Source of the DNA: a virus
Virus record (IMG/VR): IMGVR_UViG_3300045988_151684
Coordinates: 1-64,000 of that record
Direction: 5' to 3' (one strand)
DNA: 64,000 nucleotides
Shown here one piece after another: positions 677-56,515 of this stretch (position 1 is the first letter of the stretch; every line of letters begins with the position of its first letter). The position numbers and the translations under genes are program-made. The notes under the pieces are model-generated. The model made no database searches. It saw only the letters and a program-made list of their open reading frames with translations, and was not told where the DNA came from.

Positions 677-705
677 TAGACATGCGGGCAAATATTTAAT
701 AAAGA
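677..705 (+). terminator. hairpin GCCCGCA...TGCGGGC followed by A/T tract
   Basis: 7-bp stem seen in sequence after stop of 250..609. Confidence 0.4.
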
Positions 706-719
706 ATCTTGAATATGTA

Positions 720-748
720 TTGACAAATCATGATGTAAATGATATAAT
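720..748 (+). promoter_or_regulatory. consensus sigma70-type promoter TTGACA-17nt-TATAAT
   Basis: TTGACA at 720..725, 17-nt spacer, TATAAT at 743..748; followed by RBS AAGGAAAGGAGGG and ATG 782. Confidence 0.5.
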
Positions 749-781
749 AGAATCAAGATAAAGGAAAGGAGGGAAGCGGTT

Positions 782-865
782 ATGGATCCAAATAAAATAC
801 TGAACCTCATAACAGCGGTTATCAACCTCATCACTGCGATAATCCTGCTGAATGCGGCTCAGTAA
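782..865 (+). CDS. 27-aa hydrophobic peptide MDPNKILNLITAVINLITAIILLNAAQ
   Basis: perfect promoter and strong RBS directly upstream; single predicted TM helix; followed by GC hairpin CCCGCC-tgcg-GGCGGG at 877..892. Confidence 0.35.
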   Translation: MDPNKILNLITAVINLITAIILLNAAQ

Positions 866-1019
866 AGCAAATTGAGTGACAAGCTCCCGCCTGCGGGCGG
901 GGCGGCTTCCCTCAAACACAATATACCATAATCGCAAATGTTATGCAAAGAATAACAATGATAATTTCGGGAATCGCATTGATGGTTGCATTGTACGCAC
1001 TATATTTGGGGGTGAGTAG

Positions 1020-1211
1020 GTGAGTAGCAGCAAAAATGGATGGGGCGGAAAACGTGAAGGCGCCGGACGTAGACCATCGGCTCCAGACGGCACCGAAAGA
1101 CGAATGCGTTCCCTGCGCGCTTCAGATGATGAATGGGAAACAATAAAAGCCTTTGCTAAGATTCTCAAAGACAATCCGGTGCGGGCGGCGCGGATGATGA
1201 AAACAGAATAA
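1020..1211 (+). CDS. conserved small phage protein with NGWGGKR.GAGR motif (paralog of 55589..55786)
   Basis: GTG start with RBS GGGGGTGAG; N-terminal motif shared with prophage 2 protein MADTNNGWGGKRAGAGRP. Confidence 0.5.
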   Translation: MSSSKNGWGGKREGAGRRPSAPDGTERRMRSLRASDDEWETIKAFAKILKDNPVRAARMMKTE

Positions 1212-1349: not shown

Positions 1350-1856
1350 ATGGCAGCAGAGACTGAAATTATTGACAGCATGAAAAATGATCGAATGATT
1401 GCAGAGGAATATCTATTAGCCTATGAAGATAAGAAACAGGAGTATGAAGACCGCCGCGCAGAATATCTCAACCGTAATATCCCGTTTGATAATAATATGG
1501 GCGGCGGGAAAGGTAATCTGCCAGGCCATCCTGTTGAAATTGCGGCCATTCGGGCGGTACAATACAACATGAATCATGACGAATACCTATGGCTGAAAGC
1601 TGCAGATATCACATTGAAGACGTATGGTGAAAGGAAAAGGATATTCATATCGTGTCGGCAGGAAGCAGATAGACACGCCCGCCGGTGGCGTGGGCGGAAG
1701 TCATGGATAATATACACACAGCGCCGATATAACGAGGAAATCGAAAAGCGATTCATCAATGCCCGTGGATGGGTGAGTGAGCGCACAATTCATACATGGT
1801 GGGCGCAGATTGTCGATAGAGTTGTGCAGATACATTTGCGTTTGCAAAATATTTAA
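1350..1856 (+). CDS. putative late-gene transcriptional activator (ArpU/RinA-like), homolog of 54183..54593
   Basis: RBS AGGAGGG; conserved block RTYGERKRIFI..RQEA...YVQRRY.EEI.KRFINAR...W..I..R..E.HLRL shared with prophage 2; position immediately upstream of HNH-TerS. Confidence 0.45.
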   Translation: MAAETEIIDSMKNDRMIAEEYLLAYEDKKQEYEDRRAEYLNRNIPFDNNMGGGKGNLPGHPVEIAAIRAVQYNMNHDEYLWLKAADITLKTYGERKRIFISCRQEADRHARRWRGRKSWIIYTQRRYNEEIEKRFINARGWVSERTIHTWWAQIVDRVVQIHLRLQNI

Positions 1857-54182: not shown

Positions 54183-54593
54183 CTAGTTTAAGGTGCTGCC
54201 TTTTAATCGCAAATGCATTTCAATTATTCGATTTATTATTTGCCGCCACCACTCTTTTAATGTTCTTTCAGCAAATAAACAACGAGCATTAATAAAACGT
54301 TTATTTATTTCCTCTGCATATCGTCTTTGAACATATGCTGTCCAAGCGTGCCGCCCACGGCCATTTGTTTTCTTGCCTTCTGCTTCTTGACGTACCATAA
54401 TAAATATTCTTTTTCGTTCACCGTATGTTCGCAAGGTTAAATCTATAGCCTGCAACCACTCATTATCTTTAATATTTTTATCCACTTGGGTTTGGTAAAT
54501 ATCATAATTTAGAATATACTTAGCTGCCATTTTACGATCTTCCCGCATTTGTTTAACAATTTCTTGCGCATTGTCATACTGATATTTTTTCAT
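54183..54593 (-). CDS. ArpU/RinA-like late transcriptional activator
   Basis: start MKKYQYD with RBS AAAGGGGA; homolog of 1350..1856. Confidence 0.45.
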   Translation of the reverse strand: MKKYQYDNAQEIVKQMREDRKMAAKYILNYDIYQTQVDKNIKDNEWLQAIDLTLRTYGERKRIFIMVRQEAEGKKTNGRGRHAWTAYVQRRYAEEINKRFINARCLFAERTLKEWWRQIINRIIEMHLRLKGSTLN

Positions 54594-54657
54594 AATTTCC
54601 CCTTTTATGTAATACGTGTTTATAAAACTCCTTGGCAATAGTCAGTTTTTGAAATCT

Positions 54658-54725: not shown

Positions 54726-55082
54726 ATGTCAGATTTTGAAGTCAGTTTCTATACTTGCCACGATGGCGGCAAGCCTGCTAAAGATTTTATCCTTGGTCTG
54801 GATAAGAAGATGCGTACCAAAATGTTACGCACCATCGAAATTCTTGAAGATAAGGGCAATCTGCTCCGTGAGTCATATTCTAAGCATTTAGACGATGGTA
54901 TCTTTGAACTTCGTGCCAAAGTCGGCAGCGATATTTCACGGGTGCTATATTTCTTCGTGGTAAACCACGAAATTATACTCTCCCACGGCTTCATCAAGAA
55001 AACTCAAAAGACACCACCTGCCGAAATCGAACGTGCAAAAAAGAACCGTAAGGACTATTTGGAAAGGATGACTGACAAATGA
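54726..55082 (+). CDS. RelE/HigB-like (Gp49/DUF891-type) toxin
   Basis: ...ELRAKVGSDISRVLYFFVVNHEIILSHGFIKKTQKTPPAEIERAKK pattern; followed by HTH gene with ATGA overlap. Confidence 0.65.
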   Translation: MSDFEVSFYTCHDGGKPAKDFILGLDKKMRTKMLRTIEILEDKGNLLRESYSKHLDDGIFELRAKVGSDISRVLYFFVVNHEIILSHGFIKKTQKTPPAEIERAKKNRKDYLERMTDK

Positions 55083-55357
55083 GCGAATTTAGGGATTTTC
55101 TCAATAAACAACTGCAAGATCCAGAAATTAAGGCCGAATATGATGCTTTAGAACCGGAATTTGCCATTATTCGCGCCATGATTGATGCACGGGAACGGCA
55201 GGGCATAACTCAAAAGGAATTAGCCGCCCGCACCGGCATTGCGCAGGCCGATATAAGCAAACTGGAAAACGGCAACGCCAATCCATCCATCAAGACTCTT
55301 AAACGCCTGGCATCCGGCCTTGGTTGTCGCCTAAAAATTGAATTTGCAGCCCTATGA
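55079..55357 (+). CDS. XRE-family HTH antitoxin (HigA-like)
   Basis: GITQKELAARTGIAQADISKLENG HTH; coupled to upstream toxin. Confidence 0.65.
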   Translation: MSEFRDFLNKQLQDPEIKAEYDALEPEFAIIRAMIDARERQGITQKELAARTGIAQADISKLENGNANPSIKTLKRLASGLGCRLKIEFAAL

Positions 55358-55440: not shown

Positions 55441-55588
55441 GGGTAGAAAAACCAAATGTACGTTTGAAGAAAAAGTTTCTGCTGATAAAAATTTGCACTA
55501 GAAAAGGCCACCCGCATTTTTGCGAGTGGCCATCAGGTACACTTCTATGCCCTGATAATATCATGTTCGGTATTCGGTTGTCAAATTT

Positions 55589-55786
55589 TTATTTTGTTGT
55601 CATCATACGCTCGGCGCGAGCGCGGTCTTTTTTGACGATTTCAGCGTATTTCTTGATAAGTTCCCATTCGTCATCATGCGCCCGTACCTGCCGTTGTTTG
55701 CGCTGATTGCTTTCGGCCTTGGTTGTTCCCTTTGGCCTGCCAGCCCCGGCGCGTTTGCCGCCCCAACCGTTGTTAGTATCTGCCAT
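55589..55786 (-). CDS. conserved GWGGKR-motif small phage protein
   Basis: paralog of 1020..1211. Confidence 0.5.
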   Translation of the reverse strand: MADTNNGWGGKRAGAGRPKGTTKAESNQRKQRQVRAHDDEWELIKKYAEIVKKDRARAERMMTTK

Positions 55787-55905
55787 GCCCCATCACCTTC
55801 TTCAGAACAAAAAGCGATACCGCCAGAGCTGCTAGTGACACTGCCAAAGTTACACTTGTCAATATTTCCATTTTCGTGATATGAAAACTATGCTATAATT
55901 ATCTT

Positions 55906-55960
55906 AACCCTCCAATGGAGGGGGAGGCTTTCGCCTCCCATCGCTTTTACTTGCGATGTT
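55906..55960 (+). ncRNA. candidate antisense RNA with three stable hairpins (CCCTCC-aatg-GAGGG; GGAGGC-tttc-GCCTCC; CATCGC..GCGATG)
   Basis: extended -10 TGcTATAAT at 55892..55899 directs transcription antisense to the small peptide gene. Confidence 0.25.
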
Positions 55961-56057
55961 CTTCTTTATAAGCCTTGTACATCAGTAATGCCGTTACCAG
56001 TTGGATTACTGCTGTTACAAGGCTTATTGTGTTTGCTATAATTTGCATTGTTTCCAT
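55947..56057 (-). CDS. 36-aa Fst/Ldr-like hydrophobic peptide (candidate type I toxin) METMQIIANTISLVTAVIQLVTALLMYKAYKEEHRK
   Basis: strong RBS AAGGAGGTGAGGAT; single TM then charged tail; convergent antisense promoter and hairpins overlap its 3' end. Confidence 0.4.
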   Translation of the reverse strand: METMQIIANTISLVTAVIQLVTALLMYKAYKEEHRK

Positions 56058-56209
56058 ATCCTCACCTCCTTTCTATGATTTTATTATATATCATCTTGAT
56101 TATTTTGTCAATCATAAAATCAAAAAATTTATGGGAACATCATTTTTAGCTCCCGCTAGTACCTATAACCCCCGGGGGCTATATTTGTGCCCAAGTTGGG
56201 CACAATCTC

Positions 56210-56515
56210 TCAGACATCCCAGCCCATTGCCTTCCTGTTGAGCCTATAGACTTCGTCTGCGCTCATCCCCTCACGCTCTGCAACGATTGCAAGCAATTCA
56301 TCACGTTGAATGTTACCTGAATGAGCACCAATATGGCAGCACGTACACAGCTGAACCAAGTTGTATGATACATCGCCACCGCCGCTGCCAACCGTGAAAA
56401 TGTGATGTGGTTCAATTCCTGCGTAACGCCCGCAACGTTCGCAGAAGTTCTTGCGTGCAGCTTTGATGGCTTTGCGGTCCTTTATTCTCTTGTGTTTACT
56501 GAGTCCCAACAACAT
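56210..56515 (-). CDS. small HNH endonuclease
   Basis: start MLLGLSK with RBS AAAGGAGG; CERCG...HHI...CxxCH motifs. Confidence 0.6.
   Translation of the reverse strand: MLLGLSKHKRIKDRKAIKAARKNFCERCGRYAGIEPHHIFTVGSGGGDVSYNLVQLCTCCHIGAHSGNIQRDELLAIVAEREGMSADEVYRLNRKAMGWDV

What the first reader, a model, noticed from the sequence alone, without database searches (positions are those of the whole stretch)
55892..56057. Candidate type I toxin-antitoxin: Fst-like peptide with convergent hairpin-rich antisense RNA
On the minus strand, a 36-aa peptide (one TM helix plus a KAYKEEHRK tail) has a near-perfect RBS. On the plus strand, an extended -10 promoter (TGcTATAAT) points into its 3' end. The resulting transcript starts with three very stable hairpins, including a GNRA-like GGGAGGC-GAAA-GCCTCCC on the complementary strand. 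This architecture mirrors the Fst/RNAII-RNAI and TxpA/RatA loci.
Basis: partly seen in the sequence, partly recalled or inferred. Interest (0 to 1): 0.6.

Follow-up and report, generated by a model that had tools for sequence, protein, structure and literature searches.

The report
Prophage membrane-peptide cassette with antisense promoter
The 36-residue membrane peptide is real and is the first gene of a small, mobile three-gene prophage cassette from gut and oral Negativicutes bacteria; its messenger RNA folds back to bury its own start codon and it faces a conserved opposite-strand promoter, so it looks like a new RNA-controlled toxin module but is not an Fst relative, and neither the antisense RNA nor toxicity is shown.

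Summary
The 36-aa ORF (55947-56057, minus strand) is a real gene. It belongs to an unannotated peptide family of 38 clusters and evolves under purifying selection. It is not an Fst, TxpA or TisB member. It is gene 1 of a roughly 600-bp cassette found in at least 20 diverged prophage loci of Negativicutes. The order is: consensus sigma-70 promoter, pep1, GC tetraloop hairpins, a second SD-less membrane peptide (55773-55871), a small DNA-binding protein (55589-55786), terminator. The sense RNA is exceptionally structured (z = -10.5). A covarying 5'-3' helix buries the pep1 start codon in 19-20 of 20 cassettes. A TATAAT-like -10 on the opposite strand sits at the same place in all 17 cassettes tabulated, usually with TG or a -35 at 17 nt. 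Its conservation partly overlaps the fold-back helix, and no expression data exist. The best reading is a new type I toxin-antitoxin-like module, closest in layout to yonT-yoyJ/SR6 of Bacillus prophage SPbeta (confidence about 0.45). The antisense RNA and toxicity remain unproven. The window holds a second, diverged copy at 782-1211.

The parts
56096..56123 (.). Operator-like inverted repeat TTGATT-N16-AATCAA around the -35. Related cassettes have CTTGA-N16-TCAAG, and CTTACTT/AAGTAAG in L011b.
   Evidence: Read and tabulated. The repeat type differs in the lineage whose third gene is an XRE HTH (ACCAC-N7-GTGGT). Its function is inferred.
56083..56111 (-). Promoter of the cassette: TTGACA-17-TATAAT (12 of 12 consensus positions). 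Predicted transcription start near 56076.
   Evidence: A TTGACA-like/17/TATAAT-like promoter lies at the same place in 14 of 15 cassettes checked.
56058..56076 (-). Short 5' UTR with SD AGGAGG (56065-56070), single-stranded in the predicted fold.
55947..56057 (-). pep1: a 36-aa single-pass membrane peptide from a new family (consensus ..ISLVTAVI[NQ]L[VA]TAILLYKA + basic tail).
   Evidence: The exact sequence occurs on 39 or more metagenome contigs. A profile search found 38 clusters, mostly 27-42 aa. Against L011 there are 7 synonymous and 6 non-synonymous codon changes, and 10 of 14 nucleotide changes are at codon position 3. KD hydropathy 1.97.
55968..56027 (-). Long hairpin formed by the pep1 coding sequence itself (AUAAGCCUUGUA.../...UACAAGGCUUAU).
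   Evidence: In alignment A6, helices 3 and 4 are 90-93% paired, with compensatory changes at 55/110, 58/107 and 62/103.
56038..56060 (-). 5' strand of the long-range closing helix. It covers the pep1 AUG and codons 1-6.
   Evidence: The start codon is paired in 19-20 of 20 cassettes. Covariation is shown.
55878..55902 (-). 3' strand of the closing helix (AUAAUU..GCAU..GUUUUCAUAUC). It overlaps the antisense -10 and its upstream spacer.
   Evidence: A synonymous ATT>ATC change in L011 is matched by GATAATT>GATGATT.
55939..55958 (.). Weak hairpin enclosing the pep1 stop codon. On the plus strand it is followed by UUCUUCUUUAU, so it is a candidate terminator for the antisense RNA.
   Evidence: Equivalent hairpins with other sequences occur in L011 and L043.
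55922..55939 (-). GC hairpin 1: GGGAGGC-GAAA-GCCUCCC, with a GNRA loop on the sense strand.
   Evidence: In L011 it is TGGAGCC-GAAA-GGCTCCA, two compensatory pairs.
55908..55922 (-). GC hairpin 2: CCCUCC-AUU-GGAGGG.
   Evidence: In L011 it is CACCCC-UUCG-GGGGUG, compensatory changes with a UNCG loop.
55891..55899 (+). Candidate antisense promoter: extended -10 TGcTATAAT, with no -35 in this copy.
   Evidence: A TAnnnT hexamer matching TATAAT at 5 of 6 or better is at the same place in 17 of 17 cassettes. TG is present in 12 of 17. TTGCAT at 17-18 nt is present in most of the others.
55906..55968 (+). Predicted short antisense RNA (about 60 nt). It consists of the complement of the two GC hairpins, the stop-codon hairpin and a U-rich tail, and is complementary to the last 7 or so codons and the 3' UTR of pep1. 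Both ends are guesses.
   Evidence: Fold. U-richness follows the hairpins only on this strand, across cassettes. No expression evidence exists.
55773..55871 (-). pep2: a 32-aa membrane peptide with no SD. Its stop overlaps the start of gene 3.
   Evidence: Against L002 there are 9 synonymous and 2 non-synonymous changes. Homologues, usually starting MQ..., sit in the same position in all cassettes.
55589..55786 (-). Gene 3: a 65-aa protein with a disordered basic N-terminal tail (GWGGKRAGAGRPKG) and a C-terminal helical hairpin. It is a presumed DNA-binding regulator.
   Evidence: 47 unnamed clusters. AlphaFold2 gives helices 38-53 and 55-63 and a disordered region 1-37. In one lineage an XRE HTH takes its place. 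The function is inferred.
55506..55531 (-). Intrinsic terminator of the cassette: GGCCACTCGC-AAAAAT-GCGGGTGGCC followed by TTTTCT.

Best explanation
The locus is the first unit of a mobile prophage cassette that works like a type I toxin-antitoxin module.

Shown by comparative sequence analysis:
- A consensus sigma-70 promoter drives one mRNA that runs through pep1, the hairpins, pep2 and gene 3.
- pep1 and pep2 are real membrane peptides.
- The first 190 nt or so fold into a closed domain. A long-range helix pairs the pep1 start codon with the stretch just after the GC hairpins, and the coding region forms its own long hairpin.

Inferred:
- The closed fold keeps pep1 translation low.
- A short RNA starts from the conserved opposite-strand -10 (near 55906) and runs back through the hairpins into the end of pep1.
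- That RNA pairs with the pep1 3' region and triggers decay or keeps the mRNA inert, as SR6, SR4 and RatA do in Bacillus.
- pep1 damages or depolarises the membrane when it escapes control.
- Gene 3 binds the inverted repeat at the promoter and autoregulates the cassette.

The benefit to the phage (prophage retention, exclusion of other phages, or timing of host shut-down) is speculative.
For: - pep1 is coding and conserved and predicted to span the membrane.
- The sense RNA folds at -78 kcal/mol, z = -10.5. All 14 cassettes folded have z between -3 and -10 and a closing 5'-3' helix.
- On alignment A6, 90.4% of cells are paired against 30-43% when partners are slid. 14 pairs change on both sides against 0-3 in the slid controls, and 0 of 500 shuffles reach the observed values.
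- The start codon is paired in 19-20 of 20 cassettes, and positions -3 to +3 show 3-6 pair types.
- Cognate 5'/3' duplexes average -21.3 kcal/mol against -13.9 for non-cognate pairs.
- The antisense -10 is TATAAT x7, TATACT x6, TATATT, TACAAT x2 and TAGAAT. T1, A2, A4 and T6 are invariant and the variation falls at positions 3 and 5.
- The antisense promoter score beats the sense strand in 13 of 14 cassettes, with shuffle p<0.03 in 11 of 14.
- In the L021 group the hexamer lies outside the helix yet is still conserved.
- U-rich sequence follows the hairpins only on the antisense strand.
- The pep1 unit is a discrete 330-bp present/absent block between otherwise identical flanks. The whole cassette sits at different positions in different phages.
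- The layout matches yonT-yoyJ/SR6 (PMC5848175).
Against: - There is no transcript evidence for either RNA and no toxicity data.
- The -10 motif overlaps the 3' strand of the closing helix in many lineages, where it pairs with codons GAT ATA. The -35 TTGCAT is simply the pep2 start ATGCAA, which persists where the pep1 unit is absent (L083). Sense-strand constraints could therefore explain much of the conservation.
- The hairpin loops are optimised for the sense strand, not the antisense.
- There is no canonical terminator for the antisense RNA.
- The SD stays unpaired, so pep1 may be translated during transcription.
- Some relatives have a first ORF that is amphipathic with a long basic tail rather than a membrane helix (L012, L020, L041).
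- A protein regulator (gene 3) is part of the unit, which classic type I systems lack.
- No known antitoxin RNA family matches.
Confidence: 0.45

Rival explanations
1. There is no antisense RNA. The cassette is a protein- and RNA-structure-regulated operon of two phage membrane peptides plus its own DNA-binding repressor. It might serve superinfection exclusion, a holin/antiholin-like pair, or host shut-off. The conserved ATTATA/AGTATA block then serves the sense RNA, as helix strand, nuclease site or protein-binding site.
For: - In many lineages the motif is inside the covarying closing helix.
- TTGCAT is the pep2 start codon plus Gln, and it is kept without pep1.
- The tetraloops favour the sense strand.
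- Gene 3 is swapped between two DNA-binding types together with the promoter repeat.
- TGNTATAAT is common in the window.
Against: - The hexamer keeps the exact conservation profile of a -10 (T1, A2, A4, T6 invariant) in 17 of 17 cassettes, including those where it is unpaired.
- TG and the -35 compensate for each other across cassettes.
- pep2's Gln codon is CAA in 9 of 9 cassettes where the spacing to the -10 fits, while CAG is used elsewhere in the cassettes.
Confidence: 0.3
2. pep1 and its fold are mainly a translational switch for the downstream genes. With the domain closed, the single free SD at the 5' end is placed next to the SD-less pep2 AUG at the base of the helix (a split ribosome binding site, as in T4 gene 38, from my own knowledge). 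With the domain open, the SD serves pep1.
For: - pep2 lacks an SD in every cassette.
- The SD lies 3-4 nt 5' of the helix and the pep2 AUG 5-8 nt 3' of it. The summed single-stranded spacer is 9-12 nt in all cassettes (read by eye).
Against: - L083 keeps pep2 and gene 3 without the pep1 unit and still has no SD.
- The pep1 amino-acid sequence is strongly conserved across 38 clusters, which a mere leader would not need.
- No such long-range split site is known.
Confidence: 0.1
3. It is a chance ORF next to ordinary terminator hairpins, with no dedicated function.
For: The extended -10 alone is within chance, and no database family matches.
Against: - The peptide family is conserved and shows a synonymous substitution pattern.
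- Covariation is seen in three helices.
- The cassette recurs in at least 20 diverged loci.
- The hairpins have no U-tract on the sense strand, and the covarying helix requires read-through.
Confidence: 0.02

Closest known systems
yonT-yoyJ/SR6 of Bacillus subtilis prophage SPbeta (type I TA; PMC5848175)
   Same: - Located on a prophage.
- The toxin gene is first on a polycistronic mRNA from a strong sigma-A-type promoter.
- A second small toxin-like ORF follows directly.
- The antitoxin RNA promoter, with an extended -10, sits between or at the start of the second ORF and reads back over the 3' end and 3' UTR of the first.
- The antitoxin RNA is short (about 100 nt).
   Different: - The sequences are unrelated.
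- Here the predicted RNA would not overlap pep2.
- The toxin mRNA has a covarying 5'-3' fold-back.
- A DNA-binding protein gene is a fixed third member.
- The hosts are Negativicutes.
- Nothing here has been shown experimentally.
hok/sok (fold-back inhibition) and aapA1/IsoA1 of Helicobacter pylori (PMC5416894, listed; mechanism from my own knowledge)
   Same: The full-length toxin mRNA is translationally inert because a long-distance 5'-3' interaction occludes the translation start, and the mRNA is highly structured.
   Different: - In those systems the antisense RNA targets the 5' region and the SD is sequestered. Here the AUG is paired while the SD stays free, and the antisense would target the 3' end.
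- The peptides are unrelated.
   Same: A small membrane peptide with a charged tail, a convergent short RNA, and a GC hairpin between the two promoters.
   Different: - No Fst profile match.
- No Fst-type Pro/Gly motif.
- No conserved repeats in the antisense that are complementary to the ribosome binding site; the CCUCC arms of this copy are not kept in relatives.
- The hairpin is not a sense-strand terminator.
TisB (E. coli type I toxin)
   Same: A weak profile similarity (L-x-x-A-x-x-Q-L-x-x-A-x-L-x-Y), a central polar Gln in the helix, and similar size.
   Different: - The score is 14 bits against a cut-off of 25, E = 0.06-0.07, and it appears only in this copy and its nearest relative, not in the 8 other first-ORF sequences scanned (5 clear family members plus 3 atypical ones).
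- The regulatory layout is different (TisB has a 5' trans-acting IstR-1 and SOS control; my own knowledge).
Type I TAs on Clostridioides difficile prophages (PMC7699646, listed)
   Same: Small membrane toxins with Lys-rich tails and convergent antisense RNAs on prophages of gut Firmicutes.
   Different: The sequences are unrelated. Those are two-component loci, with no second peptide or regulator gene and no documented closing helix.

Membership tests
Fst/Ldr toxin family (Pfam Fst_toxin) | Significant match to the family profile | tested here: not met
   The Pfam scan at E<=1 returned only DUF6529 (E 0.01) and TisB_toxin (E 0.073). NCBIfam returned nothing.
Fst/Ldr toxin family (Pfam Fst_toxin) | RNA I/RNA II layout: the antisense carries repeats complementary to the toxin's translation initiation region, and the two RNAs share a bidirectional terminator (from my own knowledge) | tested here: not met
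   The CCUCC arms that could pair with the SD in this copy are not conserved in L011, L021 and other relatives. No U-tract follows the hairpins on the sense strand, and the covarying closing helix needs read-through.
TisB toxin family (PF13939) | Profile match above the curated cut-off, shared by family members | tested here: not met
   14.0-14.3 bits against a cut-off of 25. The hit is present in 2 of the 10 distinct first-ORF sequences scanned.
Known antitoxin or other RNA families (Rfam 15) | Covariance-model match at the gathering score | tested here: not met
   No hit in the window at gathering score. Only sub-threshold chance hits appear in 55480-56220.
Type I toxin-antitoxin system (generic) | A small hydrophobic peptide of under 60 aa with one membrane helix | tested here: met
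   36 aa, with a KD mean of 1.97 over 19 residues. It belongs to a conserved peptide family.
Type I toxin-antitoxin system (generic) | A cis- or trans-encoded antisense RNA that pairs with the toxin mRNA | tested here: inconclusive
   A promoter-like element is conserved on the opposite strand, but it overlaps sense-strand pairing, and no transcript data are available.
Type I toxin-antitoxin system (generic) | A toxin mRNA fold that limits translation | tested here: met
   The start codon lies in a covarying long-range helix. The effect on translation is inferred.
Type I toxin-antitoxin system (generic) | The peptide is toxic when over-produced, and the RNA neutralises it | not testable with these tools
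   This needs expression experiments.
Type II TA (protein antitoxin that autoregulates the operon) | A DNA-binding antitoxin encoded next to the toxin that binds an operator at the promoter | tested here: inconclusive
   Gene 3 is an XRE HTH in one lineage (HTH_3, E 1.9e-8) and a basic-tail/helical protein here. Inverted repeats at the promoter differ with gene-3 type. Binding and neutralisation are untested, and only one HTH lineage was seen.
Known anti-phage defence systems (PADLOC) | Match to a defence-system protein model | tested here: not met
   There are no hits for pep1, pep2 or gene 3.

The most novel reading that the evidence does not exclude
The cassette may be a new kind of three-part switch. 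One Shine-Dalgarno sequence would be shared between two membrane-peptide ORFs through a 190-nt fold-back domain: open serves pep1, and closed places the SD next to the SD-less pep2 AUG. An antisense promoter would be embedded in the closing strand, and an exchangeable DNA-binding autoregulator would complete the unit. That would be a hybrid of type I and type II toxin-antitoxin logic, spread through Negativicutes phages.
Probability: 0.12. Interest if true: 0.8.

Novelty: new variant of a known kind. Interest (0 to 1): 0.6.

Why it matters
- The library searches found no type I toxin-antitoxin system described for Negativicutes (Veillonella, Selenomonas, Megasphaera and relatives, common in mouth and gut).
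- This peptide family has no name in Pfam, NCBIfam, PHROGs or PADLOC.
- If confirmed, it adds a new toxin family with an unusually clear, covariation-supported mRNA fold-back. It also adds a fixed partnership with a second peptide and a DNA-binding protein.
- The 330-bp present/absent polymorphism and the two diverged copies in one window give natural material for testing what the module does for a prophage.
- It is also a caution for annotation. These 27-40-aa genes and their RNA structure are mostly unannotated or only inconsistently called in public assemblies.

Tried and rejected
- **Protein libraries:** Pfam, NCBIfam, PHROGs and PADLOC gave only sub-threshold or function-less hits for pep1, pep2 and gene 3.
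- **RNA families:** Rfam at gathering score and at relaxed E-values gave nothing meaningful.
- **Isolated phages:** blastn and tblastn against phage genomes found no match.
- **Solved structures:** a PDB sequence search with the gene-3 profile found nothing. I did not run a fold search, because a two-helix model would match anything.
- **Second plus-strand promoter:** the GTTACA-17-TGcTATAAT inside the ORF (56014-56042) is rejected. Its -10 is hit by synonymous changes in L002 and L011.
- **Anti-SD idea:** the CCUCC hairpin arms are not conserved, so they are unlikely to act as anti-SD elements.
- **Hairpins as sense-strand terminators:** rejected, because no U-tract follows them and the covarying helix lies downstream.
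- **TisB homology:** rejected as a family-wide property.
- **Technical failures:** the 36-aa query was too short for two tools. A 12-sequence MAFFT alignment lost the register of the closing helix, so I used an anchored gapless comparison instead.
- **Noisy pattern scan:** most hits of the viral contigs DNA pattern fell in an unrelated gene.

Full report
**1. The observation**

The minus-strand ORF 55947..56057 encodes METMQIIANTISLVTAVIQLVTALLMYKAYKEEHRK. AGGAGG lies 7 nt upstream of the ATG. Residues 6-24 reach a Kyte-Doolittle mean of 1.97, and a charged tail follows.

On the plus strand, TGcTATAAT is at 55891-55899. An RNA starting near 55906 folds into three adjacent hairpins at -30.9 kcal/mol, z = -5.2. 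So the description is accurate.

Two qualifications apply. TGNTATAAT occurs 10 times in the window against 5.3 expected, so it is not remarkable by itself.

**2. Context**

The right half of the window is a prophage in minus orientation. Downstream of the peptide lie an HNH gene, TerS, TerL, portal, ClpP-type protease and capsid genes. Upstream lie another HNH gene and ParA/ParB-type genes.

Immediately after the peptide come two more minus-strand genes. The first is a 32-aa hydrophobic ORF (55773..55871). The second is a 65-aa ORF (55589..55786) whose start overlaps the stop of the 32-aa ORF. An intrinsic terminator follows at 55531-55506. A Gp49/HTH (HigBA-like) pair lies convergent to them at 54726-55357.

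**3. The peptide is a real gene of a new family**

- The exact 36-aa sequence occurs on dozens of gut-metagenome contigs.
- A profile search of 1.84 billion representatives found 38 clusters at E<0.001. Nearly all are 27-42 aa, with the consensus ..ISLVTAVI[NQ]L[VA]TAILLYKA followed by a basic tail.
- Against the diverged homologue in L011, 10 of 14 nucleotide changes are at codon position 3.
- Pfam, NCBIfam, PHROGs and PADLOC give no significant or named match.
- The only type I toxin signal is TisB_toxin at 14 bits against a cut-off of 25. It is confined to this copy and its nearest relative.
- No Fst or TxpA match appears.

**4. It heads a conserved, mobile three-gene cassette**

Searching with the 65-aa protein and with a DNA pattern from pep1 recovered cassettes from Megasphaera, Selenomonas, Acidaminococcus, Anaerovibrio and unnamed Selenomonadales and Veillonellaceae.

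All the cassettes share one order:
- a TTGACA-17-TATAAT-like promoter flanked by an inverted repeat;
- a short leader with a strong SD;
- pep1;
- one or two GC-rich hairpins directly after the stop codon;
- an A(T/G)TATA block;
- about 17 nt further, the start of pep2 (usually ATGCAA), which has no SD;
- a small third gene.

pep2 is under purifying selection, with 9 synonymous and 2 non-synonymous changes between the window and L002.

The third gene is usually the 65-aa family. AlphaFold2 gives it a disordered basic tail (GWGGKRAGAGRPKG) and a confident helical hairpin at residues 38-63. In one lineage an XRE-type HTH replaces it (HTH_3, E 1.9e-8). That lineage also has a different inverted repeat in the promoter spacer. 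This suggests that gene 3 is the cassette's own DNA-binding regulator, but it rests on a single lineage.

Evidence for mobility:
- In L002 the cassette sits between the portal and ClpP genes rather than before the terminase genes. Homology begins just upstream of the -35 and ends at the gene-3 stop.
- In L011 two cassettes flank a methyltransferase gene.
- L082 and L083 are identical except for a 330-bp block that carries exactly the pep1 unit, running from an upstream hairpin to 7 nt before the pep2 ATG.

Gene 3 relatives also occur alone in Veillonella, and directly after HicAB in other loci.

The window has a second, diverged copy on the plus strand: pep1 at 782-865, pep2 at 943-1023 and gene 3 at 1020-1211. 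It lies ahead of the packaging genes of a second prophage. Its peptides are identical to those of a Selenomonadales MAG (L037).

**5. RNA structure on the peptide's own strand**

From the predicted start (56076) to just before pep2, the 205-nt sense RNA folds at -78 kcal/mol against -37.8 +/- 3.8 for shuffles, z = -10.5. The fold has three parts:
- a long-range helix pairing GAUAUGGAAAC/AUGC/AAUUAU (the start codon and first codons) with AUAAUU/GCAU/GUUUUCAUAUC (55902-55878);
- a long hairpin made by the coding region itself;
- the stop-codon hairpin and the two GC hairpins.

The same closing helix appears in the minimum-energy fold of all 14 cassettes tested.

Covariation evidence:
- On a 7-sequence alignment, RNAalifold recovers the helices. 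90.4% of cells are paired against 30-43% with slid partners. 14 pairs change on both sides against 0-3 in the slid controls. None of 500 shuffles reaches the observed values. The structure was derived from the same alignment, so the paired percentage is somewhat favoured.
- In an anchored comparison of 20 cassettes, the start codon is paired in 19-20, and positions -3 to +3 in 16-20, with 3-6 different pair types.
- GUG starts pair with CAC or CAU.
- A synonymous ATT>ATC change in L011 is matched by A>G in the 3' strand.
- Cognate 5'/3' duplexes are about 7 kcal/mol more stable than non-cognate ones.

The SD itself stays unpaired.

The GC hairpins change sequence but keep their pairing. Their loops are GAAA, GCAA, GCGA, UUCG, UACG, UGCG or UCCG on the sense strand in most cases. 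They are not sense-strand terminators. No U-tract follows them (mean 1.8 U in 14 nt), and the covarying closing strand lies downstream of them.

**6. The antisense promoter**

The A(T/G)TATA block reads on the other strand as TATAAT (7 cassettes), TATACT (6), TATATT (1), TACAAT (2) and TAGAAT (1). T1, A2, A4 and T6 are invariant, and variation is confined to positions 3 and 5, as expected for a -10. TG precedes the hexamer in 12 of 17 cassettes. Of the five without TG, four have TTGCAT 17-18 nt upstream. The window copy and L011 lack the -35 but have a perfect TGcTATAAT.

A simple promoter score is higher on the antisense strand than on the sense strand in 13 of 14 cassettes. It beats shuffles at p<0.03 in 11 of 14. 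A U-rich stretch follows the hairpins only in this direction (7.1 of 14 nt), so a short RNA of about 60 nt is plausible.

Three points weigh against this:
- In several lineages the hexamer lies inside the closing helix, paired with pep1 codons GAT ATA.
- TTGCAT is simply the pep2 start codon plus Gln, and it persists where pep1 is absent.
- The hairpin tetraloops favour the sense strand.

Two points weigh for it:
- In the L021 group the hexamer is unpaired but still conserved.
- The pep2 Gln codon is always CAA where the spacing fits the -35.

I put the chance that a transcript starts here at roughly 0.6-0.65.

**7. Mechanism and comparison**

The anatomy best fits a type I toxin-antitoxin-like unit. 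It combines a strongly transcribed but self-occluded mRNA for a small membrane peptide with a convergent short RNA covering its 3' end.

The closest published layout is yonT-yoyJ/SR6 on prophage SPbeta. There the toxin is first on a polycistronic mRNA, a second small toxin ORF follows, and SR6 is made from an extended -10 promoter. SR6 overlaps the yonT 3' end and promotes RNase III decay (PMC5848175). The start-occluding 5'-3' helix recalls hok and aapA1 (PMC5416894 listed; the mechanism is from my own knowledge).

The differences are the unrelated peptide family, a free SD with a buried AUG, an SD-less second peptide, and a fixed DNA-binding third gene.

No paper in the searchable library links type I systems to Negativicutes.

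**8. Verdict**

The type I TA-like architecture holds, membership of the Fst family does not, and the antisense RNA and toxicity remain unproven.
- I rate it a new variant of a known kind and of moderate-to-high interest.

Noticed in passing
window 700-1211 (+): A second, diverged copy of the whole cassette. It has a TTGACA-17-TATAAT promoter, pep1-like 782-865 (MDPNKILNLITAVINLITAIILLNAAQ), a UGCG hairpin, pep2-like 943-1023 and a 63-aa gene 3 at 1020-1211. In this copy an anti-SD stretch GCUUCCCUC after the hairpin can pair with the SD. The peptides are identical to those in L037 (Selenomonadales MAG HGM14095).
   Followed up: partly
window 1-28000 (+) and about 30000-64000 (-): The window appears to hold two related prophages facing each other. 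Each has cassette, a 151/168-aa ORF, HNH, TerS, TerL. The right one has GC of 0.29-0.36 in its structural genes against 0.45-0.47 in its early region and about 0.5 in the left half. No tRNA gene is present.
   Followed up: partly
window 54726-55357 (+): A Gp49 (HigB-like) toxin and HTH_3 antitoxin pair, convergent with the cassette. In L004 and L006 a HicAB pair and a pRha gene occupy the same region, and in L088-L090 gene 3 follows HicAB directly. This position seems to be a hotspot for toxin-antitoxin cargo.
   Followed up: partly
L082 versus L083 (columns 518-847 of alignment A7): A clean 330-bp presence/absence polymorphism of the pep1 unit between 100% identical flanks, with no obvious target-site repeat.
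   Followed up: yes
window 56096-56123 and equivalent sites in other loci: An inverted repeat brackets the -35 (CTTGA-N16-TCAAG in most cassettes, with compensatory CTTACTT/AAGTAAG in L011b). Cassettes whose third gene is an XRE HTH instead have ACCAC-N7-GTGGT in the promoter spacer. This may be an operator for gene 3.
   Followed up: partly
window 56014-56042 (+): A second promoter-like site, GTTACA-17-TGcTATAAT, lies inside the pep1 ORF and points at its 5' end. It is not conserved in L002 or L011.
   Followed up: yes
L003 and L007, 854-4257: In these contigs an AAA ATPase and a 758-aa S8 peptidase lie upstream of the cassette, in place of the ParAB-type early genes seen in the other loci (an HNH-like 107-aa ORF is still called at L007 4472-4795). 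This may be a defence or cargo insertion.
   Followed up: no
L012, L036, L041, L020 (first ORF of the cassette): In Selenomonas and Anaerovibrio phages the first ORF is not a membrane helix. It is a 28-53-aa amphipathic peptide, often with a very long Lys/Arg tail, yet the promoter, closing helix, hairpin and antisense -10 are all kept.
   Followed up: partly
L011, 921-2907: Two cassettes on one 2.9-kb contig flank an N6 DNA methyltransferase gene.
   Followed up: no
window 54183-54638 (-) and 1350-1856 (+): Homologous 151/168-aa ORFs sit between the cassette and the HNH and terminase genes in both prophages, with no family match in PHROGs. They may be late-gene regulators.
   Followed up: no
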